Source: an uncultured Clostridia bacterium (lineage in GTDB: Bacteria; Acidobacteriota; Blastocatellia; UBA7656; JADIYM01). From it: a stretch of 61,895 bases of DNA. The notes under the pieces were generated by a model. That model had not been told where the DNA came from, searched no databases, and worked only from the letters and a program-made list of their open reading frames with translations. Location of the stretch: positions 1 through 61,895 of the forward strand of contig CAZQBW010000003.1 of NCBI GenBank assembly GCA_964591515.1, in the 5' to 3' direction. Position numbers and translations under genes: made by a program. Below, one piece after another: positions 4,989-44,018 of this stretch (positions within the stretch are counted from its first letter, which is position 1; the number at the start of each line of letters is the position of its first letter).

Positions 4989-5084
4989 GCGACACGAATC
5001 GATGAGAACCGCGGGTCGAGCGCAGCATCGGGCGACGTTGCGCCGGCCCGCGGTGTCGTTTCGGATGTCAGGATTTCGGGAGTT

Positions 5085-5195
5085 AGAAGGCGTGGCCGTA
5101 CAGAGTGCACAGAGTCACAGAGCCCTCAGTCTGACGAAATCGTTCAGACTCTGTGCTCTTCGTGGCTCTGTGCTCTTTGTGCGGCCACGCCTTCT
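5085..5195. repeat. CACAGAG/CTCTGTG-family palindromic repeat, tail-to-tail type
   Basis: AGAAGGCGTGGCCGTAC... pairs with ...GCGGCCACGCCTTCT; lies between convergent genes. Confidence 0.85.
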
Positions 5196-5204
5196 TCCTC
5201 TTCT

Positions 5205-6872
5205 CTACCGCACTGCCGAGCCGAAGCGCTCGCTGTCCTTGCGGGTGCCGTCGACGCCCGACGCACCCTGCGACCAGAGCTGGACGCCCGACTCGGTGAT
5301 CGGGCCCGACAGGCTCGAGTACACGATGTGGACCGCCCCGCAGTCTTGATCGTTGTCGATGTCCTCGAACGGAACGCCGATCGCGAGATCCTCGAATCCG
5401 TCCCCGTTGTAGTCGCCGTTCGAGAGCGCCGCCCCGAATTCGTCGCCGGCCTCGGGCGAGCCGGAGTGGATGAAGGACTGCGTGAGTACCATCTGGTCGC
5501 TCAGGTCGACACCGAACGACTTGGACATGAAGACGTGGACGCTGCCGGCGCCGTCCTGGGTTCCGACCCGATCGCCCGGGACGCCGATGACGAGATCCTC
5601 GAAGAAGTCCGCGCCGAGCTTTGCGATCGTGAGCGTCTCGCCAAACCGGTCGCCGGCCTCGGCGACGCCCTGGACACCGCCAAGGTCCTCGTGGATCACC
5701 GTCGCGAAGCGCGTGAACGCTCCCGTCGCCGAACCGAGAAACAGCATCACCGAGCCCGAGTCGATGGCGCCGCTCGTGTCGTCGCCGGGCAGGCCGACCG
5801 CGAGGTCGTCGAAGCCGTCGCCGTTCGTGTCGCCGGCCGCGAGGGCCGATCCGAAGGCGTAACCGGTGTTGTCCGCAACGATATTGAGGATCTTTGTGCG
5901 GCGCTGGAGCTGCCGCGATCCGGTCGACGTGATCCCGACGCCGGCTTCACCGAATAGAACGTGGACCGTGCCCTCATCGGGGGTAATGCCGTTGTCCTCG
6001 AACGGCGTGCCGATCGCGAGATCCGAAACGAGGTCTCCGTTGAAATCGCCGGTCGCGAGTGCATCGCCGAATCGGTCACCGGACTCCGCAAGATCGCCGA
6101 TGCCCGGCGAGTCCTGCGACCAGAGCTGATCGGCGGCCGCCGACAGCCCCGACGCCGTTCCGTACAGCACGTGAACCACGCCGTGCTGGACGCCCGACAC
6201 GCCGGCGATGGCCTCGCGCGGGGCGCCGATGGCAAGGTCCGTACGGCCGTCGGCGTTGAAGTCGCCCGATGCTAGCCGGAGGCCGAAATGGTCCCCGGGT
6301 TCGCTCACGTCTTCGACCCCCGGCGTATCCTGCGAAAAGACCTGGTCGTCGTTGCGGTCGAGTCCGCCGGCGCCGCCGTAGAACACGCTGACACGCCCGC
6401 CCACTATGTTGTTCTGGAGCTCGTCGACCATGGGACTGCCGATCGCGATGTCGGAGTATCCGTCGCCGTCGAAGTCGCCCGACGCGAGTGCGGCGCCGAA
6501 GTTGTCGTAGTCCTTCGGGACTCCCGAGACGCCAGCGTCGCGCATGTCGAAGGCCTGGTCACCGGACGACGAGATGCCGGACGTCGTGCCGTAGAGCGCG
6601 TTGATCTGGCCGGCTTCGTAGAGCGGGAACGTGAACGGCGCGATACCGATCGCCTCGCCCGGCGAGCCGACGACGAGGTCGTCGATGCCGTCACCGTCGT
6701 AGTCGCTTCGCTCGCCGGATGCCACGGGGTCCATGGCGACGTGAATGACCGGCGTCGACGCCGGCAAGGCTGACGACGGTCCGCCGAACACGGCGGTCGT
6801 GAGAAGCGTCAGGCACGCGAGCGACGCAGCGCGTCGAATTCCGAACGCGGCGGTTCGGGGGTTTGGCAGCAT
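5205..6872 (-). CDS. Secreted FG-GAP (integrin alpha-like) seven-blade beta-propeller protein (555 aa)
   Basis: ATG at 6872 with GGAGG; signal peptide; seven repeats with DxDGDG-like Ca loops (DYDGDG, DFDGDG, DFNADG, DFNGDL, DTNGDG, KLGADF, DYNGDG) and FG-x-AL motifs. Confidence 0.9.
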   Translation of the reverse strand: MLPNPRTAAFGIRRAASLACLTLLTTAVFGGPSSALPASTPVIHVAMDPVASGERSDYDGDGIDDLVVGSPGEAIGIAPFTFPLYEAGQINALYGTTSGISSSGDQAFDMRDAGVSGVPKDYDNFGAALASGDFDGDGYSDIAIGSPMVDELQNNIVGGRVSVFYGGAGGLDRNDDQVFSQDTPGVEDVSEPGDHFGLRLASGDFNADGRTDLAIGAPREAIAGVSGVQHGVVHVLYGTASGLSAAADQLWSQDSPGIGDLAESGDRFGDALATGDFNGDLVSDLAIGTPFEDNGITPDEGTVHVLFGEAGVGITSTGSRQLQRRTKILNIVADNTGYAFGSALAAGDTNGDGFDDLAVGLPGDDTSGAIDSGSVMLFLGSATGAFTRFATVIHEDLGGVQGVAEAGDRFGETLTIAKLGADFFEDLVIGVPGDRVGTQDGAGSVHVFMSKSFGVDLSDQMVLTQSFIHSGSPEAGDEFGAALSNGDYNGDGFEDLAIGVPFEDIDNDQDCGAVHIVYSSLSGPITESGVQLWSQGASGVDGTRKDSERFGSAVR

Positions 6873-6994
6873 GGAAGTGTCCTCCTGGCGGTGTTGCGAG
6901 CGGTGTTGGAACCGCACGCTGTCACCGTAGGACCTTCCACGCGACTAGGTCTTAAGCCCCGGGTAAAGAAACCCTAGCGAAGTTCTAAGGGAGT

Positions 6995-7126
6995 GGTGAG
7001 TGGACAGGATTGACAGGAGTCTCAGAGGATTGACAGGAGTATCTTGGGCGATTCGGAACGGGTTCAATTGATCCAAGACCGTTCCTGCAAATCCTCTGAA
7101 AATCCCGTCAATCCTGTCCACTCACC
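6995..7126. repeat. ~130-bp palindromic element, copy A (GTGAGTGGACAGGATT family)
   Basis: Perfect 20-bp terminal inverted repeat 6995-7014 / 7107-7126; internal core shared with the copy at 23570-23705. Confidence 0.85.
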
Positions 7127-7130
7127 TCTT

Positions 7131-15966: not shown

Positions 15967-15993
15967 GAGCTTCGTTCGTTAGTGGGTGAGAGT

Positions 15994-16082
15994 CTCTGAG
16001 CTCTCCGTGTCTCTGTGCTCTCTGTATGGCAACGCCTTTGCCGTTGGCATTCAGAGTGCACAGAGTCACGGAGAGCACAGAG
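15994..16082. repeat. CACAGAG-family palindrome, head-to-head type
   Basis: CTCTGTGCTCTCTGTATGGCAACGCC...GGCATTCAGAGTGCACAGAG. Confidence 0.85.
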
Positions 16083-16158
16083 TCTTACAATCCCCGCCCC
16101 TCCCAAACTTTCTCCATCCCCCCGGCGTCTGAAACCGCGAAGGACGGAGGTACTCCCG

Positions 16159-17349
16159 ATGACCCGGAAACAGACCCCGGAGCGCGATATCGCCCACCTG
16201 CTCCGACGCGCCGGATTCGGCCCGTCGCAGGCGGAGCTCGATACCTATACACCCCTCGGCTTTGAGCGCGCGGTCGACCGGCTCATCGCGGGACTCGCCG
16301 AGAAGCCTCCCGCTGACCCGGCGGGCTTCAGCGTCTTCGCTCCGGGCGCCGCCAACGCCGCCTGGCTCGAGCGCATGCGCACGAGCGCCACTCCACTCGC
16401 CGAAAAACTGACTCTCTTCTGGCACGGCCACTTCGCGACGTCCGTTCGCAAGGTCGAGGATCCGAAGCTCCTGTGGCGTCAGGTCTCGTCCTTCCGCGCG
16501 CTCGGCGCCGGAAGGTTCGCCGATCTGGTCGCGAGCGTCAGCCGCGACCCGGCGATGATCCGATGGCTCGACGGCAACTCGAACCGCAAGGGCGCCCCGA
16601 ACGAGAACTATGCGCGGGAGTTGATGGAGCTCTTCACGATCGGCCGCGGCCACTACACCGAGACCGACGTCCGGGAAGCCGCGCGGGCCTTCACTGGATG
16701 GGGCTCAGAGAACGGCGTCTTCGTCTTTCGTCCCGAGTTTCACGACTCGGGATCGAAGAGTCTGCTCGGCGAGACCGGCAACCTCGACGGTGACGACGTC
16801 GTTCGAATCGTGACCGGCCGCCCTGAGTGCGCCCGATTCATTTCGAGCAAGCTCATCGCCTTCCTGTCGCACCCGGAGCCGTCGGGCAATGACGTTGCCG
16901 CGGCTGCGGCGGTCTTCTCGCGAACGAAAGGCTCGATCGCCGACGTCGTGAGGCACATCCTTCTTGCTCCGGCGTTTCGCTCCGACGCGTCCTACCGCTC
17001 GCTCGTGAAGAGTCCGGCCGAGTTCATCGTCGGCGCGCTGAAGGTCGCCGGTCTCGGCGGCACGCCGCCGTGGGCCGTCGAGTCGATGGGTCGCATGGGG
17101 CAGACGCTCTTTGCGCCGCCAACGGTGAAGGGCTGGGACGGCGGCGCGGCGTGGCTATCGGCGGGAGCGTTGCTCGAGCGCATGAGGTTCGCCGCGAAGC
17201 TGGCGCCCGAGGCTCGGGCTGTCGACGCGACGCTCGCGCTTGCGTTCGACGGACAGATGCCGGCGGAGATGAGCGGCGTGCTGGCAGCTGCGACGGGAGT
17301 GGATCGAGTGGCGCTCGCGCTTGCGTCGCCGGAGTTCCAGTTGAATTGA
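16159..17349 (+). CDS. DUF1800 family protein (396 aa)
   Basis: HLLRRAGFG, KLTLFWHGHFATS, DPAMIRWLD, PNENYARELMELFTIG, PPTVKGW; GGAGG RBS at 16146. Confidence 0.9.
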   Translation: MTRKQTPERDIAHLLRRAGFGPSQAELDTYTPLGFERAVDRLIAGLAEKPPADPAGFSVFAPGAANAAWLERMRTSATPLAEKLTLFWHGHFATSVRKVEDPKLLWRQVSSFRALGAGRFADLVASVSRDPAMIRWLDGNSNRKGAPNENYARELMELFTIGRGHYTETDVREAARAFTGWGSENGVFVFRPEFHDSGSKSLLGETGNLDGDDVVRIVTGRPECARFISSKLIAFLSHPEPSGNDVAAAAAVFSRTKGSIADVVRHILLAPAFRSDASYRSLVKSPAEFIVGALKVAGLGGTPPWAVESMGRMGQTLFAPPTVKGWDGGAAWLSAGALLERMRFAAKLAPEARAVDATLALAFDGQMPAEMSGVLAAATGVDRVALALASPEFQLN

Positions 17350-17378
17350 ACGGCGGATGCCGTCATCGGAGTGTCGAC

Positions 17379-18581
17379 ATGAAGAACTTAATCGATCGAC
17401 GAAGCGTCCTGAAGGGTCTTTTTGCGCTGCCGGCGTTTGCGGTGGTCGCCGGTCGCCCGGACTGGGCGAATGCCGGTGTCAACCCGGTCGCCAACGCTCC
17501 CGGTACTGATCCGAGGGCCGGGAGGGCGCTGGTGATGGTGCACCTGGCCGGGGGAAACGACGGGTTGAACACGGTCGTGCCGATCGGCGACCCGGCGTAC
17601 GCGAGGCTTCGGCCAGCGCTCGCACTGTCGAAGGCGGACGTTCTTCCGATCGATCGCGGGCTTGCCCTCCATCCGGCGCTCGGAGGATTCAAGACGCTGT
17701 ACGAGCGCGGGCAGTTGGCGATTGTTCAAGGCGTCGGCTATCCCAATCCTGACTTCTCGCACTTCCGCGCGACAGAGATCTGGGAGGCCGGCGATCCGAA
17801 CGGAGGCGCATCCGGCTGGATAGGGAGATACCTCGACGAGACGCCCGGACGGCGCGGACTGCGCGCGGTGGCGCTCAGCAAGGAGCAACCGCCGCTGGTG
17901 CTCGCCTCGTCGTCGTCGCCCGCGGTCACGGTCAGCGATCCGGCCAGTTTCCGTCCACCCGCGAACGCCGATGCGATCCGCGCCATGTACGCGGCGTACG
18001 CGAAGCAGCCGGCCGCGCGCCACGTCGTCGGCGAGGCTGGCGTCGAAACACTCAACGCCGCGGCAACGATCTCGAGCCTGCGCGGCGGCACCAGCGTCAA
18101 CTATCCGCCCGGCGAGCTGTCCGCGGATCTCAAGCGCGTCGCGGAATTGCTGGCTGCGGGAGTGGGCATCGAGGTGCTGCACCTGTCGTTCGGCGGATTC
18201 GACACGCACGTGAACCAGACGGGCAAGCACCGTCAATTGCTCAACCAGGTCGGTGGCGCCTTTGCCGCCTTCCAGCAGGATCTCGAGCGGCGCGGGATCG
18301 CGAAGAACGTCGCAACGGTGGTCTATTCCGAATTCGGTCGCCGTCCTGCCGAGAACTTCGGCGGCGGCACCGATCACGGTTCGGCCGGTCCGCTCTTCGT
18401 AATTGCGGACGGCGTTCGCGGCGGACTGCACGGAGAGACTCCGTCGCTGACGGCGCTCGAGAACGGCAATCTCAGGTTCACAACGGACTTTCGGGCGGTC
18501 TTCGGCGGCATCGTCCGCGACTGCCTGAAGGGCGACCCTTCGGCGGTCTTTCGCGGCATCGCGCCGCTCGGTCTTTTCTAG
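17379..18581 (+). CDS. DUF1501 family protein with Tat signal (400 aa)
   Basis: DRRSVLK twin-Arg; LAGGNDGLNTVVP, SHFRATEIW, GGFDTH, SEFGRR, GTDHG. Confidence 0.9.
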   Translation: MKNLIDRRSVLKGLFALPAFAVVAGRPDWANAGVNPVANAPGTDPRAGRALVMVHLAGGNDGLNTVVPIGDPAYARLRPALALSKADVLPIDRGLALHPALGGFKTLYERGQLAIVQGVGYPNPDFSHFRATEIWEAGDPNGGASGWIGRYLDETPGRRGLRAVALSKEQPPLVLASSSSPAVTVSDPASFRPPANADAIRAMYAAYAKQPAARHVVGEAGVETLNAAATISSLRGGTSVNYPPGELSADLKRVAELLAAGVGIEVLHLSFGGFDTHVNQTGKHRQLLNQVGGAFAAFQQDLERRGIAKNVATVVYSEFGRRPAENFGGGTDHGSAGPLFVIADGVRGGLHGETPSLTALENGNLRFTTDFRAVFGGIVRDCLKGDPSAVFRGIAPLGLF

Positions 18582-18608
18582 GCGGCGCAATTCGGACGCA
18601 GGTTCGAG

Positions 18609-18713
18609 GCGTCGGTGGTTCGACCAGGGGCTCCGGCTCCCGGGGTACGAAGCGGCCACGGGTGTACCGTGGAACTCCGCGAGACCGGGGCCCCTGTTCC
18701 AACCACCGCACGC
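18609..18713. repeat. Imperfect ~29-bp inverted repeat with nested stems upstream of the Spy-like gene
   Basis: GCGTCGGTGGTTCGACCAGGGGCTCCGG pairs with CCGGGGCCCCTGTTCCAACCACCGCACGC; inner stem CCACGG/CCGTGG. Confidence 0.65.
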
Positions 18714-18744
18714 GCGCCGGGGTTCTGGTCGGAATGGAGTCATC

Positions 18745-20013
18745 ATGAAGCGAATAATCCTCATTGGCTTGGTATTGGCGGTCGCGGCCCCGGTCGCGGT
18801 TCTGTCGGCTCAGCGGTTCGCGCGTGAGCGCGGGGCGCAGCGCGGCTTTGGCGACGGTGTGACGCCGTCACAGGTCTGGCGAGTGCGGACGCTCACAATG
18901 GACCAGCGGTTGAAACTCAGCGAGATGCAGAAGGAGATGTTGCGCGACCTGCGTGACGCGCGCGGCGACGGCTCCGGACGTCGCGAAATGGTCAGGGCGC
19001 TCGGCGAGGCGCAGCAACGTATGGCGTCAGTCGTCACGCCCGCGCAGCTCGATCTGGCGCGCCAGCAGCCGCGAGGACCGCTTGCGCCGGAGGAGTTCCT
19101 CTACTACGCGATCGTCGCGTTGCCTGAACTCGATGCGTCGCGGCGCGCGAAAGTGGACGCGGTGTATGGGTCGGTTCTCGAGACGGCAAGGTCCGAGGCG
19201 GCTGAGATGGGCGGCTTCGGCCGCGGACGCGGTCGCGAAGACTCGAACGCGGATCCGGCCGATATCCAGGCTCGCGAGCAACGGCAGTCCGGACAGCGGC
19301 AGAGACGAATCGCGCTCTTCGAAGTCACTGAGGCGCTGCTCACGCCGGACCAGATGATTGCGGTGAAGCGGTTTCTGCCAGAGACGCTGAAGATGGTCGG
19401 AATGCGCGAAAAGATCATCTTCCGGCTGCCATCGTTGACTCTCGAGCAGGAGGCGCAGGTGCGCGCGATCTTTGCGGCGCTCGAAGACGAAACCGCGGCG
19501 GACAAGGCTCGGTTGAAGGCACTGCGGGGAGAGTCAGGACGGAGCGGCGATGGCTCCGGTAGGTCGGAGCGTCGGGAGCTCGCCGACCGTATCGACGAGC
19601 GAGAGGGAAAGGCCTACGCGGAACTTCAGAAGGTGCTTACGCCGGAGCAGGTGAAGGAGCTCGCGGCGCGCGCGCCCGGCCCCCCGGGATCGGTCGTCTT
19701 CACGCCTGAGATGCTCCGCGGGCTCGATGACGTGACGCCGGCTCAGCAGGCCAGGTTGCGAGATGCGCTGATGGGGTTCAATCGTTCCACGATGGATGAG
19801 CGGCGCGAGGCGCGGGATCTGCGCGAGCAGGTGAAGGGCGGCGATCCGCAGTCGATGGAACTGGCGGGCGTGCGGGATCAGTTGCGGCAGGTCGGGTCGG
19901 TACTGCAGTCGGAGCACGACAAGATCGTGAGGACCGTCGCGGACACGCTGACCGGGCCGCAGCTCGCGAAGCTCGTTGCGACTGCCTCGACGAAGAAACC
20001 GCGGCAACTGTAG
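18745..20013 (+). CDS. Secreted all-helical protein with four Spy/CpxP-like (LTxxQ) units (422 aa)
   Basis: Signal peptide; paired LTMDQ/VTPAQ, LDASR/LTPDQ, LTLEQ/LTPEQ, VTPAQ/LTGPQ. Confidence 0.7.
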   Translation: MKRIILIGLVLAVAAPVAVLSAQRFARERGAQRGFGDGVTPSQVWRVRTLTMDQRLKLSEMQKEMLRDLRDARGDGSGRREMVRALGEAQQRMASVVTPAQLDLARQQPRGPLAPEEFLYYAIVALPELDASRRAKVDAVYGSVLETARSEAAEMGGFGRGRGREDSNADPADIQAREQRQSGQRQRRIALFEVTEALLTPDQMIAVKRFLPETLKMVGMREKIIFRLPSLTLEQEAQVRAIFAALEDETAADKARLKALRGESGRSGDGSGRSERRELADRIDEREGKAYAELQKVLTPEQVKELAARAPGPPGSVVFTPEMLRGLDDVTPAQQARLRDALMGFNRSTMDERREARDLREQVKGGDPQSMELAGVRDQLRQVGSVLQSEHDKIVRTVADTLTGPQLAKLVATASTKKPRQL

Positions 20014-20019
20014 AACCCC

Positions 20020-20108
20020 CTTTGTGACCTCCGTGCCTCCGTGCTCTCTGTATGCCGACGGCAATGGCGTTGCCATACAGAGATCACAGAGGCCCAGAGA
20101 ACACAGAG
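20020..20108. repeat. CACAGAG-family palindrome, head-to-head type
   Basis: Same core as 15994-16082 in reverse orientation; sits between convergent stops. Confidence 0.85.
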
Positions 20109-20122
20109 GGCTCCTTCGAGAG

Positions 20123-21358
20123 CTACAGGAACCCGACGTCCTCGAATGCGCTCCCCAGGATCGACTCCGGCTCCACCTGCAACCAGTTCCTGAGCACCGT
20201 CGAATACACGGACCGGAAGTCGATCTCGTGGATCAGGTCGTAGTTGTCGTCGAGATTCACGAGGCTCGGGTGATCGCCGTACACCCCTCCCTGCACCGCA
20301 TTCCCGAGCACGAAGAGCGGCGCCGCCGTCCCGTGATCGGTTCCGAAGCTCTCGTTCTCGTTCACCCGTCGACCGAACTCAGAGAACGTCATTACCAGTA
20401 CGTCGTCACCTCGACCGTGTGCGACCACGTCCTGATGGAAGGCCGAGAGCCCGTCCGACAACCACCGCAGCAACCGCGCGTGGTCTCCCGCCTGGTTGGC
20501 GTGCGTGTCGAACGATCCAAGGCCCGTCACGTAGATGTCCGTCCCGAGGTTCGCTCCGATCAACTGCGCGATCTTGAGCAGGCTCTGGCTGAACGGATCG
20601 TCCGGATACGCCACGGCCGGCACGTAGTTGTCCGCGACCTGACTGATGACGCCCGACGACTCGTATGCCGCGAGGCCTGTGTTCGCGATGAAGTCGATCG
20701 TCGACTCTTCACCGCGCACATCGTCGTAGAGCCCTGCGAATGCAGCGAACTTGTTCGCATCGTCCTGCGGTTGCGCGCCGTCACCGGCGATGCGGTACGA
20801 CTCGAACGAATCGATCGAGGCGACGCCAGCCGACGTCGCCGTCGTTAGCACCGCGGGAGTCTCGAATCCGATGTTGATTGCATCGAGCATCGTGCTGCCC
20901 GGAATCGCAATCTGGTCGAGGTAGCGTCCTAGCCAGCCCGTCGATGCGATCGCGTCGGGCTCGGCCGTCTGCCAGATCTCGGTCGATCGAAAGTGGGAGA
21001 GGTTTGGCGAAGGGTAGCCGACGCCCTGCACGATGGCGACGCGGTTCTGGTCGTACAGGCTCTTCAGCGACGCCAGGCTCGGATGCAGTCCGAGCGAGTC
21101 GGTCAGCGGAACGAGCGACCCCGGCGCGAGCGCGAGCGACCGCCGATACTGCGCATACTTCGGATCCGTGAACGGGACCACCGTGTTGAGTCCGTCGTTG
21201 CCGCCGTTCATCTCCACGACGACGAGGATCTTGCCGTTCCCGCGACCGGCCGCGCGCGCGATTCCGGATCCGCGACCGAGCAGGAAGCGGGGCGCGGCCA
21301 GCCCCGCACCCACGAATGTGACGCCCCGCGTGATGAATTGCCGTCTCGAGTGCGACAT
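20123..21358 (-). CDS. DUF1501 family protein with Tat signal (411 aa)
   Basis: SRRQFI twin-Arg; MNGGNDGLNTVVP, SHFRSTEIW, SFDTH, SEFGRR, GTDHG. Confidence 0.9.
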   Translation of the reverse strand: MSHSRRQFITRGVTFVGAGLAAPRFLLGRGSGIARAAGRGNGKILVVVEMNGGNDGLNTVVPFTDPKYAQYRRSLALAPGSLVPLTDSLGLHPSLASLKSLYDQNRVAIVQGVGYPSPNLSHFRSTEIWQTAEPDAIASTGWLGRYLDQIAIPGSTMLDAINIGFETPAVLTTATSAGVASIDSFESYRIAGDGAQPQDDANKFAAFAGLYDDVRGEESTIDFIANTGLAAYESSGVISQVADNYVPAVAYPDDPFSQSLLKIAQLIGANLGTDIYVTGLGSFDTHANQAGDHARLLRWLSDGLSAFHQDVVAHGRGDDVLVMTFSEFGRRVNENESFGTDHGTAAPLFVLGNAVQGGVYGDHPSLVNLDDNYDLIHEIDFRSVYSTVLRNWLQVEPESILGSAFEDVGFL

Positions 21359-21372
21359 CGTTCCGGTCCTCC

Positions 21373-23052
21373 TCAGCGGGTCAGGTCGTACGGCATCGAC
21401 TGCACGCCGTCAGGATTCTCGACCACGAGCGTGACGGTTCCGCCCACGGGAATGAGTTCGTCTACCGTTCGTCCGCCGGGCGTGCTGCGGACCTTCCTGC
21501 CGACGACCCACTTCGACGCTCCCTTCGCTGCGAGCGGGAAGAACTCCGTGCCCGCGATCGTTTCGCCCGTCACTCGCAGCCGTGCCCCAACGACAAGTCC
21601 CGAACCCGTTCCGGAGAGCAGCAGCTTGCCCTTCTTGATTACCGGCGAAACGACGACCGGCGCCGCAAGGTCGGGATCGACGGCCAGAGCGTGTACCTGG
21701 TACTCGGCGGTCGACATGAGCAACCGGAGCAGGCCGCGGATCTTCGTGTCGATCGTCTCGTCGTCGAGTACGAACTCGCCGGGAGTGCCGTCGGGCCGCG
21801 CTCGCAGGTAGTCGGCCAGCCGGCGCTTCGCCACCGAACCGATGTCGAGCGGTCCGAGACGCTCGGCAAACGCGTCGACGATCGTCTCGGGCGTCGACGC
21901 GCCGGTCTGGGCGACGAGCGCCGCGGCATCGACGAGCTGGTAGCCCTCGCCGCGGATCATCGCCACGCCGTTCGTGAAGTTGAATCGAGAGATCAGCGTC
22001 GAAGTGTTCACCCACTTCCTTCCGCCGTCCCAGCCCTTCACGCTCGGCGGGAAGAACAATGTCTGCCCCATCGAGACTGTGTTGAAGATGAAGTAGCGGA
22101 AGTCGGGGAACTCGATGATCGGGCGCGACGCCTCGAGAGACCGCAGCGTTCCGACGTAGATCTCGACCGGGCTCTTGATCTGCGCGTCGGCAATCGATGC
22201 CGCGAAGAACTCGTCGCGAAGGAACATCGTCCGCACCATTTCGCGAATCGAGCGGCTGTTGGCCCGGTACGCGGCGGCCATCGCGTCGAGCGCGGCCTGC
22301 GGCGCAGGGCCCGTCCCGAAGAACGCCCACAGCTTTCTCGCCAGGAACTGCTCGCACACCGGACTCGCCGCGAGGATTCGACAAACCTGGCGGCCGTCCT
22401 CGATGCCCTGGCCCGAGGGGATGAACGTGCCGAGCACGGATTTCGAGTCGTTGTCGTGAATCCCGTCGATGAAGTCGAAGCCGGCGCCGCGGAACGTCCA
22501 GCCCGTGAAACAGCGGGCGACTTCCTTTACGTCGGTCTCGGTGTAGTTGCCGATGCCGAGCGAAAAGAGCTCCATCAGCTCGCGGGCATAGTTCTCGTTC
22601 GGCGCTTCCTTCACCGACACGACGTTGTCGAGCCAGAAGAGCATCGCGGGATCGGCCGAAACCTCGATGAGCGTCTGCTGGAAATCGCCGACCGCCCGCC
22701 GACGGAAGAGCCGGTTCTGCTCAAGCATGAACCCCGGGTCGTTTACCTTCGCGTACGACGTCGCGAAGTGGCCATGCCAGAAGAGCGTGAGCTTCTCTTC
22801 GAGCGGCCGCGCCGTGTACAGCATCCGGTAAAGCCACCAGTAGTAGATCTGGACGATCTCACCGAGGTCGAGCGAGAGTTGCGTGAGGCGTGTCTCGAGC
22901 GCACTGTTGTCGATCGACTCGTAGTCGACGAGGCGCGAGACGGCCTGCTCGTGACCGAGTGCCGCGAACGTCGCGACTTCCGCCGGCGTTGGCCCGAATC
23001 CGGCGCGCCTCAGCAGGTAAGCGGCGGAGTTGGCATTCCATGCGACGGCCAC
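21373..23052 (-). CDS. DUF1800 family protein with extra C-terminal Ig-like domain (559 aa)
   Basis: YLLRRAGFG, KLTLFWHGHFATS, PNENYARELMELFSLG, PPSVKGW; last ~95 aa beta-rich, ending LVVENPDG; GGAGGAGG RBS. Confidence 0.88.
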   Translation of the reverse strand: MAVAWNANSAAYLLRRAGFGPTPAEVATFAALGHEQAVSRLVDYESIDNSALETRLTQLSLDLGEIVQIYYWWLYRMLYTARPLEEKLTLFWHGHFATSYAKVNDPGFMLEQNRLFRRRAVGDFQQTLIEVSADPAMLFWLDNVVSVKEAPNENYARELMELFSLGIGNYTETDVKEVARCFTGWTFRGAGFDFIDGIHDNDSKSVLGTFIPSGQGIEDGRQVCRILAASPVCEQFLARKLWAFFGTGPAPQAALDAMAAAYRANSRSIREMVRTMFLRDEFFAASIADAQIKSPVEIYVGTLRSLEASRPIIEFPDFRYFIFNTVSMGQTLFFPPSVKGWDGGRKWVNTSTLISRFNFTNGVAMIRGEGYQLVDAAALVAQTGASTPETIVDAFAERLGPLDIGSVAKRRLADYLRARPDGTPGEFVLDDETIDTKIRGLLRLLMSTAEYQVHALAVDPDLAAPVVVSPVIKKGKLLLSGTGSGLVVGARLRVTGETIAGTEFFPLAAKGASKWVVGRKVRSTPGGRTVDELIPVGGTVTLVVENPDGVQSMPYDLTR

Positions 23053-23166: not shown

Positions 23167-23508
23167 TCAGTCGGTGATTGTGTGATCGGCTTCGCGATGG
23201 TCGAAAGCGTGCAGTGCCGCAATGGTGGCAAGCAGGTGCTGCACATGAAGGCGGAAGTCTTCGGCCTGAGGGCCTTCGCCCTCGATGGGAGTCGATGCCA
23301 GCCGTGCCGCTATCGGTCGAACGGCCTCGACGATCGCTTCGAGCCTCGCGGCTCGAGAGATGATGCCGAGCGCACTGACGAACTGTTCGTTGATGCTCTC
23401 GGCCGTCTCGTTGGGGAATCGTTGAAAGGGTGCGTCGCTCACGGCAGCGGCTGCGGCGCGAAGGATTACTTTCTGAATCGATGCTGTATCGGGGCCAGTC
23501 TGGCTCAT
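23167..23508 (-). CDS. Small helical hypothetical protein (113 aa)
   Basis: ATG 23508 with GGAGGTG RBS; TATACT -10 at 23545-23550 on the minus strand. Confidence 0.6.
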   Translation of the reverse strand: MSQTGPDTASIQKVILRAAAAAVSDAPFQRFPNETAESINEQFVSALGIISRAARLEAIVEAVRPIAARLASTPIEGEGPQAEDFRLHVQHLLATIAALHAFDHREADHTITD

Positions 23509-23569: not shown

Positions 23570-23705
23570 GAGAAGTGAGAGGACAGAATTTCAGGATTTC
23601 CCGAGGACTGACACCATTCCGGGGATGCGGAACGGGTTCGATCGATCCAAAGTCCTTCCCGCGAATCCTCGGGAACTCCTGACGAATCCTGTCCACTCAC
23701 TTCTC
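23570..23705. repeat. ~135-bp palindromic element, copy B (GTGAGTGGACAGGATT family)
   Basis: Terminal GAGAAGTGAG/CTCACTTCTC; core CGGAACGGGTTCGATCGATCCAA versus CGGAACGGGTTCAATTGATCCAA in copy A. Confidence 0.82.
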
Positions 23706-27006: not shown

Positions 27007-27107
27007 GGAACGCGAAGAATACCGGAAGGCCCGGACCTCCGGGAGGGCTTGACCGACCGTTGGCGTGCCAGGACCGTCGTGAGAAGGCGTCGCCGGCCTG
27101 AATTGAG

Positions 27108-27216
27108 AAGGCGTAGCCGTACAGAGAGCACGGAGTCACAGAGCACACAAAGGCTCGAATGATCAGGAGCCTTCGTGCCCTCTGTGACTCTGTGCTCTCT
27201 GTACGGCCACGCCTTT
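27108..27216. repeat. CACAGAG-family palindrome, tail-to-tail type, 3' of the kinase-FGE gene
   Basis: AAGGCGTAGCCGTACAGAGAGCAC pairs with GTGCTCTCTGTACGGCCACGCCTT. Confidence 0.85.
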
Positions 27217-27227
27217 CGTTCGGGTCG

Positions 27228-29108
27228 TCACCCCAGCTCGCGGACGATCCGCACGCCGATCGTCCCGTCCCGCTTTCCGGCCGGCTCGAGGTTCCGGTTC
27301 GACGATCGGCAACCCTCGCCCGGTTCGTCAAAGGCGCCGCCGCGAATGACCCGGTATGTTCCGGCGGACGGTCCTGCCGGGTCGGTCCCTTCGCCACGCG
27401 AGTAGGGCCCGTAGAAGTCAGAGCACCACTCCCAGACGTTGCCGTGCATGTCGAAGATCCCCCACGAGTTCGGCGCACGTGTTCCGATCGGGTGAACCCG
27501 GTCTGCAGACGTCGCTGAGTGCCAGGCCATGACGTCGAGTTGGCCGGCGTAGTCGCCCGTAGTCCCGGAGCGGCACGCGTACTCCCATTCCGCTTCCGTT
27601 GGCAGGCGGAACCGCGCGCCACCGACCCGTTCGTTCAGTTTCGCGACGAACTCCTGCGCCTCGACCCACGAGACACTCGACACGGGCAAATCCGGTCCAG
27701 GCTCGGGCGAAGGGTTCGAGGGCATGAGCCTGGACCATTGCGCCTGGGTAATCTCGAACATCGAGATGCTGAAGCCTCGCGTGATCTTGACCCGATGCGG
27801 CGGTCGCTCGTCGCGGTCACCCGTCGGTGAGCCCATCAGGAAAGTTCCCGGCGGGATGCGGACCATCGCTATCGAAACACCGTCCCCGAGGTCGATCGCG
27901 GGAAGGTCGACGTTGGTCGGGCCGGTGGAGGGGACCGGCGCCTCGCGCTGAGCTTCGGCCGCGGATTCGGCTGCCTGCTCGTCGAGAATCGGCTTGTACT
28001 GGCGCCAGCGGACAAGCAGTCCGACCGAAACGAGAAGGGCCAGAACAGCAATCGCGACGGCGATCCACATCCTGATCTCGAGCTTCCGGCGATCTTCGGT
28101 CAGCGCCGCGATCATTGGGGTGGCGAGGTCCACTTCCTCGGGCACACCGCGGCCCGTCGACTTCGAATCGCTGCGGGCCGTCGCGAAGTCGTCCCGCTTG
28201 CCGGCAATCGAAGGCTCGGGGATCTGGGCGAGAACCTCGCCGAGCGCGCGCACGAGCTCGGACGGGTCTGGCAGGGCCGCGGACAGCGCTTCGCGCATTT
28301 CGTTGGCGGACGCATACCGGCTGCCGGGCTCGAGCTGCATTGCACATTCGATGACGTCCGCGACGGCCGCCGGAACCGTATCGTTCAGGGCGTCGACTCG
28401 TGCGACCGGGTCCGGCTCAGGCGGTCTCGCCTTGAGCGTTCGCGTGACGGCGTCGATCGGCTTCACTCCGGTCATCAGGTGATAGAGCGTCGCGCCGAGC
28501 GAGAAAAGATCGCTCGCGACCGTCGTTCCTTCGTCGCGCATCTGTTCAGGCGAGGCGTAACTCGGAGTGAATCCCGAGATGCTCTCGTCGTTTACAGTTC
28601 GCGACATCTCGCCGGCGGCGCCCTTCGAGAGACCAAAATCGAGCAGCACGACCTGCCCGTCGGTCATCAGTTTGAGGTTCTGGGGTTTCACGTCCCTGTG
28701 GAGAATCGGCGGATCGTGCCTGTGCAGGAATTCGAGTGCGTCGAGGATCTGATCGCCCCAGGCGACTACGGCGGCGTACGGAAACGGACCAAGACCCGAG
28801 TCGCGTCGATGACGGAGCAGCACCGACAGATCGTCGCCTTCGACGTAGTCCATGACGAGGTAGCACGTGCCGTCCTCTTCGAAGAAATCGATGACGCCCG
28901 GAAGGGCGGGATGTCGGAGGTTGCGGAGGAGTCGCGCCTCTCGCTCGAACGCGCGGGCGCCGTCGCCCGTCGCGAAGAATGCCTGTTTGACAGCGACGGT
29001 ATTCCGGAATCGATCGTCGGTCGCGACGTACACGGCACCCATCCCTCCCGACGCAAGATGGCGCTGGATTGTGTACCGATCCTGTAGAACAGTGCCTGGC
29101 GAGAGCAT
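27228..29108 (-). CDS. Ser/Thr kinase - TM - formylglycine-generating-enzyme (SUMF1/FGE-like) domain protein (626 aa)
   Basis: SGGMGAVY, HRDVKPQN, DFG, YASPEQ; TM WIAVAIAVLALLVSVGLLV; FLMGS, EITQAQW, RLPTEAEWEYACR, DMHGNVWEWC, RGGAF. Confidence 0.92.
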   Translation of the reverse strand: MLSPGTVLQDRYTIQRHLASGGMGAVYVATDDRFRNTVAVKQAFFATGDGARAFEREARLLRNLRHPALPGVIDFFEEDGTCYLVMDYVEGDDLSVLLRHRRDSGLGPFPYAAVVAWGDQILDALEFLHRHDPPILHRDVKPQNLKLMTDGQVVLLDFGLSKGAAGEMSRTVNDESISGFTPSYASPEQMRDEGTTVASDLFSLGATLYHLMTGVKPIDAVTRTLKARPPEPDPVARVDALNDTVPAAVADVIECAMQLEPGSRYASANEMREALSAALPDPSELVRALGEVLAQIPEPSIAGKRDDFATARSDSKSTGRGVPEEVDLATPMIAALTEDRRKLEIRMWIAVAIAVLALLVSVGLLVRWRQYKPILDEQAAESAAEAQREAPVPSTGPTNVDLPAIDLGDGVSIAMVRIPPGTFLMGSPTGDRDERPPHRVKITRGFSISMFEITQAQWSRLMPSNPSPEPGPDLPVSSVSWVEAQEFVAKLNERVGGARFRLPTEAEWEYACRSGTTGDYAGQLDVMAWHSATSADRVHPIGTRAPNSWGIFDMHGNVWEWCSDFYGPYSRGEGTDPAGPSAGTYRVIRGGAFDEPGEGCRSSNRNLEPAGKRDGTIGVRIVRELG

Positions 29109-29157
29109 CGCGGCCGATTGTACAGCAGCGAGCGGGGCGGCTCTTCGGGGTCTGAGC

Positions 29158-29244
29158 CTCCGTATCTCGGTGTCTCTGTGTGCGACTCCTTTATGTTCTC
29201 GAAGACCTTCGCACCCAGAGGCACGGAGACACTGAGACACGGAG
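29158..29244. repeat. Degenerate CACAGAG-family palindrome 5' of the kinase-FGE gene
   Basis: CTCCGTATCTCGGTGTCTCTGTG pairs imperfectly with CACGGAGACACTGAGACACGGAG. Confidence 0.7.
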
Positions 29245-36111: not shown

Positions 36112-36330
36112 GCTTCCGAAGAGCGCCGGAGGCGCGAAAGAGCCCACGGCGTAAGCCGTGGGTAATCCGATGAAAGCCGGCTGAGCCCCAAGGGGCGAAA
36201 CAACCGCTGCAGGCGCGTGCGTTCTCGATGTATCGCCCCTGACGGGGCTCTCGCGTCGCTCGTCGATAATCCACGGCTTACGCCGTGGGCTCAGGCTCTT
36301 TCGCGCCTCGGCGCTCCTCGGAACAGACGC
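36112..36330. repeat. Nested REPIN-like palindrome
   Basis: Perfect 22-bp IR GAGCCCACGGCGTAAGCCGTGG (36140-36161 / 36271-36292), inner AGCCCC..GGGGCGA pair (36184-36198 / 36233-36249), outer imperfect arms. Confidence 0.85.
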
Positions 36331-40768: not shown

Positions 40769-40840
40769 GTGGGCGTATCGTGGCGGAAGCGTTGCCTTTC
40801 CCGAACAGGCTAGTCCCGGTCGCGAGACCCGTCAATGAAC

Positions 40841-40973
40841 AAGAGAGGCGTGGCCGTACAGAGAGCACAGAGTCACAGAGAGCTCAGAGTCTCCGAATCA
40901 GCAGAATCACGGAAGTATTCGAATCTCTGTGCTCTTTGTGACTCTGTGCTCTCTGTACGGCCACGCCACTCTT
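40841..40973. repeat. CACAGAG-family palindrome, tail-to-tail type
   Basis: GGCGTGGCCGTACAGAGAGCACAGAGTCACA pairs with TGTGACTCTGTGCTCTCTGTACGGCCACGCC. Confidence 0.88.
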
Positions 40974-41023
40974 GACCCGCGTGCGGATGTTGCGGCGCGG
41001 CGATGGAGGCACGCCTGCGCCAT

Positions 41024-43063: not shown

Positions 43064-43072
43064 AAGGACTTG

Positions 43073-43160
43073 CTCCGTGCTCTCCGTGCCTCCGTGCTCT
43101 CTGTATGGCACGCCATTGCCGTTGGCATACAGAGAGCACAGAGGCACAGAGAGCGCTGAG
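43073..43160. repeat. CACAGAG-family palindrome, head-to-head type
   Basis: CTCTCTGTATGGCACGCCATTGCCGTTGGCATACAGAGAG. Confidence 0.85.
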
Positions 43161-43915: not shown

Positions 43916-43924
43916 CTCGCGGTC

Positions 43925-44018
43925 TTCCTCCGTGAACCCCGTGCCTCTGTGCTCTCCGTATGGCAGCGCCGTTGGCATCGGCATACGGAGAGCACAGAGA
44001 CACAAAGGTCACGGAAAG
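43925..44018. repeat. CACAGAG-family palindrome, head-to-head type
   Basis: CTCTGTGCTCTCCGTATGGC...GGCATACGGAGAGCACAGAG between convergent stops. Confidence 0.85.

What the first reader, a model, noticed from the sequence alone, without database searches (positions are those of the whole stretch)
16159..23052. Two DUF1800-DUF1501 pairs converge on a Spy-like gene
Seen: DUF1800-DUF1501-Spy-like on plus, and a divergent paralogous DUF1800-DUF1501 pair on minus, meeting at a palindrome at 20020-20108. Both DUF1501 copies keep the same Asp/His motifs (GGNDG, SHF, FDTH, EFGR, DHG). Known: DUF1800 and DUF1501 commonly pair and have no established function. Inference: DUF1501 looks like a metal-dependent hydrolase or transferase, and this is a periplasmic system with two specialised paralogues plus a chaperone.
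Basis: partly seen in the sequence, partly recalled or inferred. Interest (0 to 1): 0.7.

Follow-up and report, generated by a model that had tools for sequence, protein, structure and literature searches.

The report
Two DUF1800–DUF1501 operons, one chaperone-linked
Two old, unrelated copies of a widespread two-gene module of unknown function (a Tat-exported alkaline-phosphatase-type enzyme plus a helical partner with no solved structural relative) lie tail to tail, and only one of them belongs to a conserved three-gene version with a periplasmic Spy/CpxP-like protein.

Summary
The layout is real. DUF1800-A, DUF1501-A and an LTXXQ protein lie on the plus strand. DUF1501-B and DUF1800-B lie on the minus strand. 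All five DUF1501 motifs are present in both copies. The same convergent arrangement occurs in five other assemblies, one a 4.06 Mb contig, so it is not a mis-join.

The palindrome is one of seven copies of a dispersed REP-like hairpin, not a feature of this locus.

The two pairs are old subfamilies (38% and 43% identity; never sisters in 200 bootstraps).

The "Spy-like" gene belongs to pair A only. DUF1800–DUF1501–LTXXQ is a monophyletic three-gene cassette (200/200) found in at least six unrelated neighbourhoods, with or without pair B. Pair B also occurs alone.

DUF1501 models as an alkaline-phosphatase-superfamily enzyme, has no sulfatase motif, and carries a near-universal Tat signal. DUF1800 is a confident all-helical model with no PDB neighbour. 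It has no signal peptide here, but carries Sec, lipoprotein or Tat signals in other lineages.

Best reading: a periplasmic heterodimer exported by Tat hitchhiking, with a dedicated four-module LTXXQ chaperone in clade A. Substrate and complex formation are untested.

The parts
15990..16082 (.). REP-like palindromic repeat copy between the TPR gene and DUF1800-A
   Evidence: Repeat families D2-D4 and I2; half-site search; short-read unitigs break here and depth rises 4-7 fold.
16159..17349 (+). DUF1800-A, 396 aa, no signal peptide; first gene of the three-gene operon
   Evidence: PF08811 365 bits; GGAGG 8 nt upstream of the ATG; conserved LLRRAGFG motif starts at residue 14; groups with the DUF1800 of all trio loci 200/200.
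17379..18581 (+). DUF1501-A, 400 aa, Tat signal (DRRSVLK); alkaline-phosphatase-superfamily enzyme
   Evidence: PF07394 105 bits; AF2 pLDDT 88; Foldseek hits to the alkaline-phosphatase superfamily; invariant R7 R8 D61 S127 H128 R130 D275 H277 E318 R321 R322 D332 H333; 29-nt gap after DUF1800-A; a metatranscriptome contig spans the gene junction at 17305-17518.
18745..20013 (+). Sec-exported protein of four tandem LTXXQ modules ('Spy-like'), 422 aa; third gene of operon A
   Evidence: Signal peptide, seven LTxxQ motifs, 0 Cys, 1 His; four ~95-aa internal repeats, hhalign E 9e-5 to 9e-13; family-level LTXXQ and Metal_resist hits; conserved downstream of A-type DUF1501 in L001-L010, L094 and L096; transcribed in four metatranscriptomes.
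20016..20108 (.). REP-like palindromic hairpin in the 109-nt convergent spacer; probable two-way transcription stop
   Evidence: (-55.2 kcal/mol, z -7.2). A terminator role is inferred, not shown.
20123..21358 (-). DUF1501-B, 411 aa, Tat signal (SRRQFIT)
   Evidence: PF07394 95 bits; 38% identical to A; separate clade 200/200 and never sister to A; metatranscriptome contig at 20746-20897.
21373..23052 (-). DUF1800-B, 559 aa: helical core plus a ~100-aa C-terminal beta-sandwich (about residues 455-559, 21376-21690)
   Evidence: PF08811 367 bits; AF2 pLDDT 94.4; no PDB match for the core, only weak Ig/FN3-like matches for the tail; the extension is limited to P0121-P0133; 14-nt gap to DUF1501-B.
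23167..23508 (-). Conserved 113-aa ORF upstream of DUF1800-B; probably not part of the module
   Evidence: Present in L003, L008 and L094, but also in L002, which lacks pair B; no Pfam hit.

Best explanation
The region holds two independent transcription units that happen to lie tail to tail. They are separated by a copy of a genome-wide REP-like hairpin that probably stops transcription from both sides.

Unit A (16159-20013, plus strand) is a conserved three-gene cassette. DUF1501-A is an alkaline-phosphatase-superfamily metalloenzyme. I infer Ser127 as the nucleophile at a helix N-terminus, and Asp61, Asp275/His277 and Asp332/His333 as metal ligands. It folds in the cytoplasm and is exported by Tat. 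DUF1800-A is an all-helical partner with its own invariant polar cluster (WHGHF, PNENYARE, HD, KGWDGG). It has no signal peptide, so it most likely binds DUF1501-A in the cytoplasm and is carried across as a hitchhiker. The result would be a periplasmic heterodimer that hydrolyses or transfers a phospho- or sulfo-ester group on a still unknown substrate. The third protein is exported by Sec, consists of four Spy/CpxP-type LTXXQ modules, and acts in the periplasm as a dedicated chaperone, adaptor or regulator of this complex.

Unit B (20123-23052, minus strand) is a different, old subfamily of the same two-gene module. Its DUF1800 carries an extra Ig-like domain. It works without an LTXXQ partner and was gained or lost independently of unit A.

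Shown: domain identities, folds, export signals, gene linkage and phylogeny. Inferred: the heterodimer, hitchhiking, catalytic residue roles, the chaperone role and the terminator role.
For: Domains and motifs.

DUF1501 fold: AF2 pLDDT 88 with 162 PDB matches at E<=1e-3; the 50 best listed are all alkaline-phosphatase-superfamily structures. Invariant D/S/H/R residues and an invariant RR.

Tat signals are found in 115/117 and 139/145 full-length DUF1501 homologues.

DUF1800 to DUF1501 in the same orientation was scored in 76 of the 80 phylum-wide survey loci. In two of the other four the upstream DNA is missing. Gaps are short or the genes overlap.

DUF1800 has no signal peptide in this subfamily: 105 of 115 have at most 20 residues before the first conserved motif. 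Other lineages carry Sec, lipoprotein or Tat signals on DUF1800. Pair B has an Ig-like tail. Some DUF1501 proteins carry T9SS sorting domains. All of this points to an extracytoplasmic site of action for both partners.

Hitchhiking has precedent in PaoABC (PMC4273604).

The trio forms a clade at 200/200 in both the DUF1501 and DUF1800 trees, and A and B are never sisters. The trio occurs in unrelated neighbourhoods. Pair B is absent in L002 and occurs alone in L095.

The third protein has a Sec signal, four internal repeats and LTXXQ family hits.

RNA contigs were found for all five genes. Hairpin and repeat family.
Against: The catalytic residue assignment rests on motif order and predicted secondary structure, not on a superposition. 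The substrate is unknown. The neighbours of 80 pairs give no recurring functional clue. DUF1800 is conserved like an enzyme, so it may be more than an accessory subunit. In this window the third gene is 163 nt downstream of DUF1501-A with a weak terminator-like site at 18553-18567, so co-transcription is not shown here. The RNA evidence consists of low-depth assembled contigs. The trees are neighbour-joining only. The window protein's own Spy/LTXXQ scores are below the curated thresholds.
Confidence: 0.55

Rival explanations
1. One reading: one periplasmic system in which two specialised DUF1800-DUF1501 paralogues share the single Spy-like chaperone encoded between them.
For: The convergent five-gene arrangement is kept in six assemblies at 67-92% protein identity. 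All five genes are transcribed in situ.
Against: The LTXXQ gene co-diversifies with pair A only (200/200) and is on pair A's strand. The trio exists without B in L002, L004, L005, L006, L009 and L096. B exists without it in L095. None of 80 other pairs has it downstream of the pair (two have only faint upstream hits of 22-28 bits). Only 1 of 80 loci has a second pair nearby.
Confidence: 0.12
2. DUF1800 is a cytoplasmic maturation or proofreading factor for DUF1501, comparable to TorD/DmsD-type Tat chaperones or to a modifying enzyme acting on the SHF serine. It would not be an exported subunit.
For: DUF1800 is all-helical, has no signal peptide in this subfamily, and always lies just upstream of a Tat substrate. 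Its strongly conserved polar residues fit an enzyme.
Against: Other lineages put Sec, lipoprotein or Tat signals on DUF1800 itself (L013, L018-L020, L030, L047, L055, L062, L075, L060, L082, L084, L017). Pair B has an Ig-like tail typical of extracytoplasmic proteins. DUF1800 proteins were recovered in a vesicle proteome (PMC12981691; weak evidence).
Confidence: 0.15
3. The adjacency is an assembly mis-join at the repeat, or a mobile or invertible cassette bounded by the two palindromes at 15990-16082 and 20016-20108.
For: Short-read unitigs end inside both repeat copies, and a unitig appears to join 16084 to 20029. The two copies are 78-83% alike.
Against: The same order is present on a 4.06 Mb contig (L008), on a 105 kb contig whose junction has a different sequence (L003), and on L094, L091 and L092. 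The apparent joint has only 27 matching bases on one side plus 18 unmatched bases, as expected for another copy of the repeat. The gyrA-TPR-trio synteny holds at about 70% identity.
Confidence: 0.03

Closest known systems
The DUF1800 (PF08811) - DUF1501 (PF07394) gene pair, described as a conserved operon of unknown function (e.g. next to horizontally transferred bacterial chitin synthases, PMC5122149)
   Same: Same two Pfam families, same gene order (DUF1800 then DUF1501), Tat motif on DUF1501; more than one pair per genome has been noted before (Agrobacterium vitis).
   Different: Clade A here has a third, co-diversifying gene for a four-module LTXXQ protein, which none of the 14 papers found in the searched library that name either family mentions. 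Pair B has an Ig-like tail on DUF1800. No chitin synthase or other recurring neighbour is present.
DUF1501 with PSCyt1/PSCyt2/PSD1 partner proteins in Planctomycetes and Verrucomicrobia (PMC3542564)
   Same: A Tat-signal DUF1501 enzyme encoded beside a large, mostly helical partner of unknown function; many paralogous modules per genome.
   Different: The partner here is DUF1800, without cytochrome c motifs. Similarity of DUF1800 to PSD domains is only faint (PSD2 in 14 of 54 members, best 19.3 bits against a cutoff of 25.8, at residues ~226-282). Profile comparison with single large neighbour proteins found nothing.
Alkaline phosphatase superfamily enzymes: NPP/ENPP phosphodiesterases, MCR-1/EptC phosphoethanolamine transferases, LtaS, arylsulfatases
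   Same: The alpha/beta core fold; an Asp after the first strand; a hydroxyl residue at a helix N-terminus; D-x-H and D-H metal-ligand pairs in the same order.
   Different: About 10% identity and TM-scores of 0.29-0.44. No match by sequence or profile to any PDB chain. No C/S-x-P-x-R formylglycine motif. No membrane domain such as EptA/LtaS have. Tat rather than Sec export. An obligate partner gene.
Spy / CpxP / ZraP periplasmic LTXXQ proteins
   Same: Sec-exported, helical, paired LTXXQ motifs; family-level Pfam LTXXQ and Metal_resist hits.
   Different: Roughly three times the size I recall for Spy/CpxP (about 140-160 aa; the NCBIfam Spy profile is 160 positions), with four tandem modules. 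Almost no His or Cys, so ZraP-like metal binding is unlikely. Hard-wired to one enzyme operon rather than to an envelope-stress regulon. The window protein scores below all curated cutoffs.
Tat hitchhiker complexes (HybOC, DmsAB, PaoABC; PMC4273604)
   Same: Only one subunit carries the twin-arginine signal, and the signal-less partner is encoded next to it.
   Different: No redox cofactor is evident. Complex formation and co-export are inferred, not shown.

Membership tests
Pfam DUF1501 (PF07394) | Profile match above the gathering score (27 bits) | tested here: met
   105.4 bits (A) and 95.4 bits (B).
Pfam DUF1800 (PF08811) | Profile match above the gathering score (26.1 bits) | tested here: met
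   365.5 bits (A) and 367.3 bits (B), full-length matches.
Alkaline phosphatase superfamily | Shared alpha/beta core fold | tested here: met
   AF2 model with pLDDT 88. 162 Foldseek PDB hits at E<=1e-3; the 50 best listed are all NPP/ENPP, MCR-1/EptC, LtaS/LtaP, YejM or sulfatase structures, at low TM-scores of 0.29-0.44.
Alkaline phosphatase superfamily | Metal-ligand Asp after strand 1, nucleophile at a helix N-terminus, later D/H ligand pairs | tested here: inconclusive
   D61 follows strand 50-56. S127 precedes helix 128-137. D275/H277 follow strand 266-271. D332/H333 follow strand 311-316. All are invariant in 51 sequences. No structural superposition or metal data were available.
Formylglycine-dependent sulfatases (PF00884) | C/S-x-P/A-x-R maturation motif | tested here: not met
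   No such motif in either DUF1501 copy; copy B has no Cys at all. No Pfam Sulfatase hit among 51 homologues even at E<=1.
Tat substrates | Twin-arginine motif followed by a hydrophobic region at the N-terminus | tested here: met
   DRRSVLKGLFALPAFAVVAG (A) and SRRQFITRGVTFVGAGLAAP (B). RR is invariant. 115/117 and 139/145 homologues have it. Pfam TAT_signal hits in 16 of 51.
Tat hitchhiker complex | Signal-less partner that forms a complex with the signal-bearing subunit before export | not testable with these tools
   Absence of a signal on DUF1800 is shown. Complex formation and co-export need multimer modelling or experiment.
Spy/CpxP LTXXQ family (PF07813; NCBIfam NF007769 Spy) | Profile match above the curated cutoff | tested here: not met
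   Window protein: LTXXQ 13.6 bits against 24.3, Metal_resist 21.2 against 29.2, Spy 16.8 against 174. Among its homologues, 12 of 24 hit LTXXQ (best E 7.6e-8) and 9 of 24 hit Metal_resist.
Spy/CpxP LTXXQ family | Periplasmic helical protein with paired LTXXQ motifs | tested here: met
   Sec signal peptide and seven [LV]TxxQ motifs, with the Gln residues invariant across 24 homologues. The architecture differs: four tandem modules.
REP/BIME-like dispersed palindromes | Many dispersed copies of an imperfect palindrome able to form a hairpin | tested here: met
   Seven paired copies in 62 kb, 14 half-sites against 0.01 expected. Hairpin z = -7.2. The 15990-16082 and 20016-20108 copies are intergenic; the gene context of the other five was not checked.
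REP/BIME-like dispersed palindromes | Associated RAYT-type transposase in the genome | not tested
   Not searched.

The most novel reading that the evidence does not exclude
DUF1800-DUF1501 is a very widespread two-subunit periplasmic esterase or transferase. Its helical subunit has a fold with no solved relative and reaches the periplasm by Tat hitchhiking. One clade, found here in a probable Acidobacteriota genome and with homologues some of which sources label Planctomycetota, has recruited a client-dedicated four-module Spy/CpxP-type chaperone. That would be the first LTXXQ chaperone genetically hard-wired to a single enzyme complex.
Probability: 0.3. Interest if true: 0.65.

Novelty: new variant of a known kind. 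Interest (0 to 1): 0.45.

Why it matters
DUF1501 and DUF1800 are among the larger uncharacterised bacterial families. DUF1501 alone has 14,836 representative clusters at 50% identity with E<=1e-3, spread across many phyla. The 14 papers the library searches found that name either family leave both without a function.

This locus sharpens what to test. It predicts a Tat-exported alkaline-phosphatase-type catalytic subunit with specific candidate active-site residues. It predicts an obligate partner whose confident model has no PDB neighbour. It also defines a subfamily with a third, periplasmic LTXXQ component.

If the hitchhiker and dedicated-chaperone readings hold, the system would add a cofactor-less example of Tat co-export and a client-specific Spy/CpxP relative. 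Both are directly testable in cultured carriers.

The two-pairs-around-one-chaperone picture that made the locus stand out is mostly coincidental adjacency.

Tried and rejected
- **Mis-join at the repeat:** rejected. Five other assemblies show the same order, and one has a different junction sequence.
- **A deletion variant from the 16084-to-20029 joint in short-read unitigs:** rejected. It matches only 27 nt on one side with 18 unmatched nt, so it is another repeat copy.
- **Recent duplication:** rejected (38% and 43% identity; sister in 0 of 200 bootstraps).
- **Sulfatase identity:** rejected because the formylglycine motif is absent.
- **Sequence and profile searches against PDB chains:** nothing meaningful for any of the three families.
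- **Foldseek of the DUF1800 core:** no hit at E<=1e-3.
- **Functional clues from neighbours of 80 pairs:** heterogeneous. At most 5 of 70 downstream genes share a family (response regulators).
- **DUF1800 homology to Planctomycete PSD domains:** only faint sub-threshold PSD2 hits, and hhalign against single large neighbour proteins was negative. The neighbours were chosen by size only; which of them is the PSD1-bearing protein was not established.
- **Extra Pfam domains in long DUF1800 ORFs and in the B-type tail:** none found.
- **The metagenome scan with the LTXXQ alignment:** gave only three loci.
- **Rfam:** no riboswitch or other RNA near the locus.
- **Sigma-70 promoter scan:** no sites.

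Full report
**What is in the sequence**

Five genes fill 16159-23052:
- DUF1800-A, 16159-17349 (+), 396 aa.
- DUF1501-A, 17379-18581 (+), 400 aa.
- A 422-aa LTXXQ-motif protein, 18745-20013 (+).
- DUF1501-B, 20123-21358 (-), 411 aa.
- DUF1800-B, 21373-23052 (-), 559 aa.

gyrA and a TPR lipoprotein gene lie upstream. All four DUF assignments are far above the Pfam gathering scores. Both DUF1800 copies share LLRRAGFG, FWHGHFAT, PNENYARELMELF, TGW, HD and KGWDGG. Start sites have plausible ribosome-binding sites.

**The palindrome**

The 20016-20108 element folds into a long hairpin (-55.2 kcal/mol, z = -7.2). It is not specific to this locus. Seven paired copies of the same CTCTGTG/CACAGAG repeat occur in the 62-kb window, with 14 half-sites against 0.01 expected. 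One copy lies at 15990-16082, just upstream of DUF1800-A. In short-read unitigs the depth over these elements is 4-7 times the genome depth, and contigs break there. It is a REP-like dispersed repeat. Its position in a 109-nt convergent spacer makes a two-way terminator role likely, but that is inferred.

**Is the arrangement real?**

Yes. The same order (gyrA, TPR, DUF1800, DUF1501, LTXXQ, then reversed DUF1501 and DUF1800) is present in five other assemblies:
- L008, a 4.06 Mb contig with about 90% protein identity.
- L003, a 105 kb contig with about 69% identity.
- L094. Its contig accession shares the JBGAKX01 prefix with locus L040, whose record title reads "MAG: Blastocatellia bacterium". 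I take both to be the same assembly, GCA_044224215.1.
- Two metagenome contigs, L091 and L092.

In L003 the convergent spacer has an unrelated sequence, so the order does not depend on the repeat. The window sequence is held at 91-98% of sampled words by more than 20 sludge or wastewater runs from at least 13 studies. An Acido-Lenti-1 RNA match elsewhere in the window and the Blastocatellia relative suggest an Acidobacteriota organism from activated sludge.

**Relationship of the two pairs**

DUF1501-A and -B are 38% identical, and DUF1800-A and -B are 43% identical. I built a neighbour-joining tree of 149 DUF1501 sequences. The A copy falls in a clade with every locus that carries the third gene (200/200 bootstraps). 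The B copy falls in another clade (200/200). A and B are never sisters (0/200). Each is about as far from the other as from the bulk of the family (median identities 37-41%). The DUF1800 tree recovers the same trio clade at 200/200, so the genes have diversified together as a unit. These are old subfamilies, not a recent duplication.

**The third gene belongs to pair A only**

DUF1800, DUF1501 and a 390-460-aa LTXXQ protein occur together in at least six unrelated neighbourhoods:
- behind gyrA-TPR (window, L001, L002, L003, L008, L094);
- behind PadR-MacB (the 57.5 kb JGI contig that carries the same DUF1501, P0022; L004, a shorter contig, holds only DUF1501 and the third gene);
- next to a CHAT/TPR protein (L005);
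- next to RIO1 (L006/L007);
- next to an aminotransferase (L009/L010);
- in L096.

The third gene often overlaps DUF1501 by 4 nt. The third proteins are homologous down to 22-28% identity. L002 has the trio but no pair B. L095 has a B-type pair, with the long DUF1800, and no LTXXQ gene.

In a survey of 80 DUF1501 loci from many phyla, DUF1800 sat directly upstream on the same strand in 76. In two of the other four the upstream DNA is missing. None has the LTXXQ gene downstream of the pair. Two Obscuribacter-related loci have only faint upstream hits of 22-28 bits. Only one locus has a second pair nearby. The shared-chaperone picture is therefore not supported. The adjacency of A and B is a lineage-specific juxtaposition.

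**DUF1501**

The AF2 model is confident (pLDDT 88 outside the signal peptide). Foldseek against the PDB gives 162 matches at E<=1e-3. The 50 best listed are all alkaline-phosphatase-superfamily structures: Xanthomonas NPP, ENPP1/7, MCR-1, EptC, LtaS, YejM and many sulfatases. TM-scores are low (0.29-0.44) and identity is about 10%. Sequence and profile searches of PDB chains find nothing, so this is a distant branch of the superfamily.

Residues invariant in 51 sequences include D61, S127-H128-F129-R130, D275, H277, E318, R321, R322, D332 and H333. By position relative to the predicted strands and helices, D61 is the ligand after strand 1. S127 sits at a helix N-terminus, where this superfamily places its nucleophile. 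The D-x-H and D-H pairs follow later strands. This mapping is inferred.

There is no C/S-x-P-x-R motif, so it is not a formylglycine sulfatase. The twin-arginine pair is invariant, and Tat-type signals are present in 115/117 and 139/145 homologues. Some Bacteroidota-type homologues add a T9SS sorting domain. The enzyme acts outside the cytoplasm.

**DUF1800**

The model is very confident (pLDDT 94.4). It shows an all-helical core of about 455 residues. In the B subfamily there is also a 100-residue beta-sandwich. Foldseek finds no PDB structure at E<=1e-3. The only weak hits, at E about 0.1, are Ig/FN3-like domains matching the tail. The tail occurs only in close B relatives (P0121-P0133) and has no Pfam match.

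The core carries many invariant polar residues: WHGHF, PNENYARE, HD and KGWDGG. That suggests a binding or catalytic site of its own.

In the sample of close B relatives, the first conserved motif starts a median of 13 residues from the N-terminus, and none has a hydrophobic leader. The A copy is the same. In other lineages the DUF1800 ORF carries one of the following:
- a Sec-type leader (L013, L018-L020, L030, L047, L055, L075);
- a lipoprotein-like leader (L062);
- its own twin-arginine leader (L014, L017, L060, L082, L084).

Together with the Ig-like tail, this places DUF1800 outside the cytoplasm. For the signal-less forms here, co-export with the Tat-signal DUF1501 is then the simplest route, as in known hitchhiker complexes (PMC4273604). 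The rival, a cytoplasmic maturation factor, is less likely but not excluded.

**The LTXXQ protein**

It has a Sec signal peptide, seven [LV]TxxQ motifs, no Cys and one His. It is made of four mutually similar ~95-residue modules (hhalign E 9e-5 to 9e-13). Its own scores against LTXXQ, Metal_resist and Spy models are below threshold. However, 12 of 24 family members hit LTXXQ (best 7.6e-8) and 9 hit Metal_resist. One source names a 99%-identical protein a Spy/CpxP family chaperone.

It is best described as a four-module relative of the Spy/CpxP group. The near-absence of His and Cys across the family argues against ZraP-like metal binding. A role as chaperone, adaptor or regulator of the A complex is inferred from strict gene linkage only.

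**Expression**

Assembled contigs from true metatranscriptomes match DUF1800-A and DUF1501-A, including one contig that spans their junction at 17305-17518. They also match the LTXXQ gene (18776-19402 in four runs), DUF1501-B and DUF1800-B. This shows in-situ transcription of all five genes, but nothing quantitative. In this window the third gene follows a 163-nt gap with a weak terminator-like site, so its co-transcription here is open.

**What is known**

The library holds 12 papers that name DUF1501 and 6 that name DUF1800, 14 in all, and 2 name both. The pair is noted as a conserved operon next to transferred chitin synthases, with a Tat motif on DUF1501 (PMC5122149). DUF1501 is described with PSCyt/PSD partners in PVC bacteria, function unknown (PMC3542564). 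DUF1800 shows only faint, sub-threshold similarity to PSD2. No paper in the library describes the three-gene version, the DUF1800 fold, or hitchhiking for this pair. The neighbours of 80 pairs are heterogeneous, so the module is self-contained and context gives no substrate clue.

**Verdict**

It is wrong about a shared chaperone and about the palindrome being special.

What is new is modest but concrete:
- a monophyletic DUF1800-DUF1501-LTXXQ cassette;
- evidence that DUF1800 acts outside the cytoplasm and probably hitchhikes on Tat;
- a confident DUF1800 model with no solved relative.

Function remains unknown. The mechanism given is the best-supported inference.

Noticed in passing
window 5080-5200, 15990-16082, 20016-20108, 27102-27217, 40839-40974, 43069-43160, 43924-44016: Dispersed REP-like palindromic repeat built from CTCTGTG/CACAGAG heptads. 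It occurs in head-to-head and tail-to-tail forms. There are 14 half-sites against 0.01 expected, and it is multi-copy in short-read data. A related element sits at the same junction in L008.
   Followed up: partly
window 36122-36162 (-): Rfam Acido-Lenti-1 RNA match (41.4 bits, gathering score 37). This is consistent with an Acidobacteriota origin.
   Followed up: no
window 27228-29240 (-): Ser/Thr protein kinase fused to an FGE-sulfatase domain (Pkinase 127 bits, FGE-sulfatase 147 bits). In L003 and L094 the orthologue lies directly beside the 114-aa ORF and pair B. The DUF1501 proteins lack the FGE target motif, so a link is doubtful.
   Followed up: partly
window 23167-23508 (-): Conserved 113-aa ORF with no Pfam match, just upstream of DUF1800-B. 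It is kept in L002, where pair B is absent. A metatranscriptome contig covers 23129-23336.
   Followed up: partly
window 5354-6743: Seven tandem copies of a ~210-nt unit (60-75% identity), apparently a repeat-domain coding region rich in Asp/Gly motifs.
   Followed up: no
window 6992-7129 and 23621-23679: A second short repeat: 7047-7105 is 78% identical to 23621-23679, and 6992-7038 pairs with 7083-7129 as an inverted repeat.
   Followed up: no
L014, L017, L060, L082, L084 (Chloroflexota and Dormibacterota-type MAGs): In these lineages DUF1800 appears to carry its own twin-arginine leader. In Vicinamibacterales and Longimicrobiales loci it carries a Sec-type leader. The export route of the partner therefore differs by lineage.
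   Followed up: partly
L029 5956-6477 and L074 5767-6501 (Obscuribacter-related MAGs): Weak LTXXQ-profile hits (22-28 bits) in an ORF just upstream of DUF1800, outside the trio clade.
   Followed up: no
L024 2161-6148: The only surveyed locus with a second DUF1800 directly after DUF1800-DUF1501, suggesting tandem pairs. The contig ends inside it.
   Followed up: no
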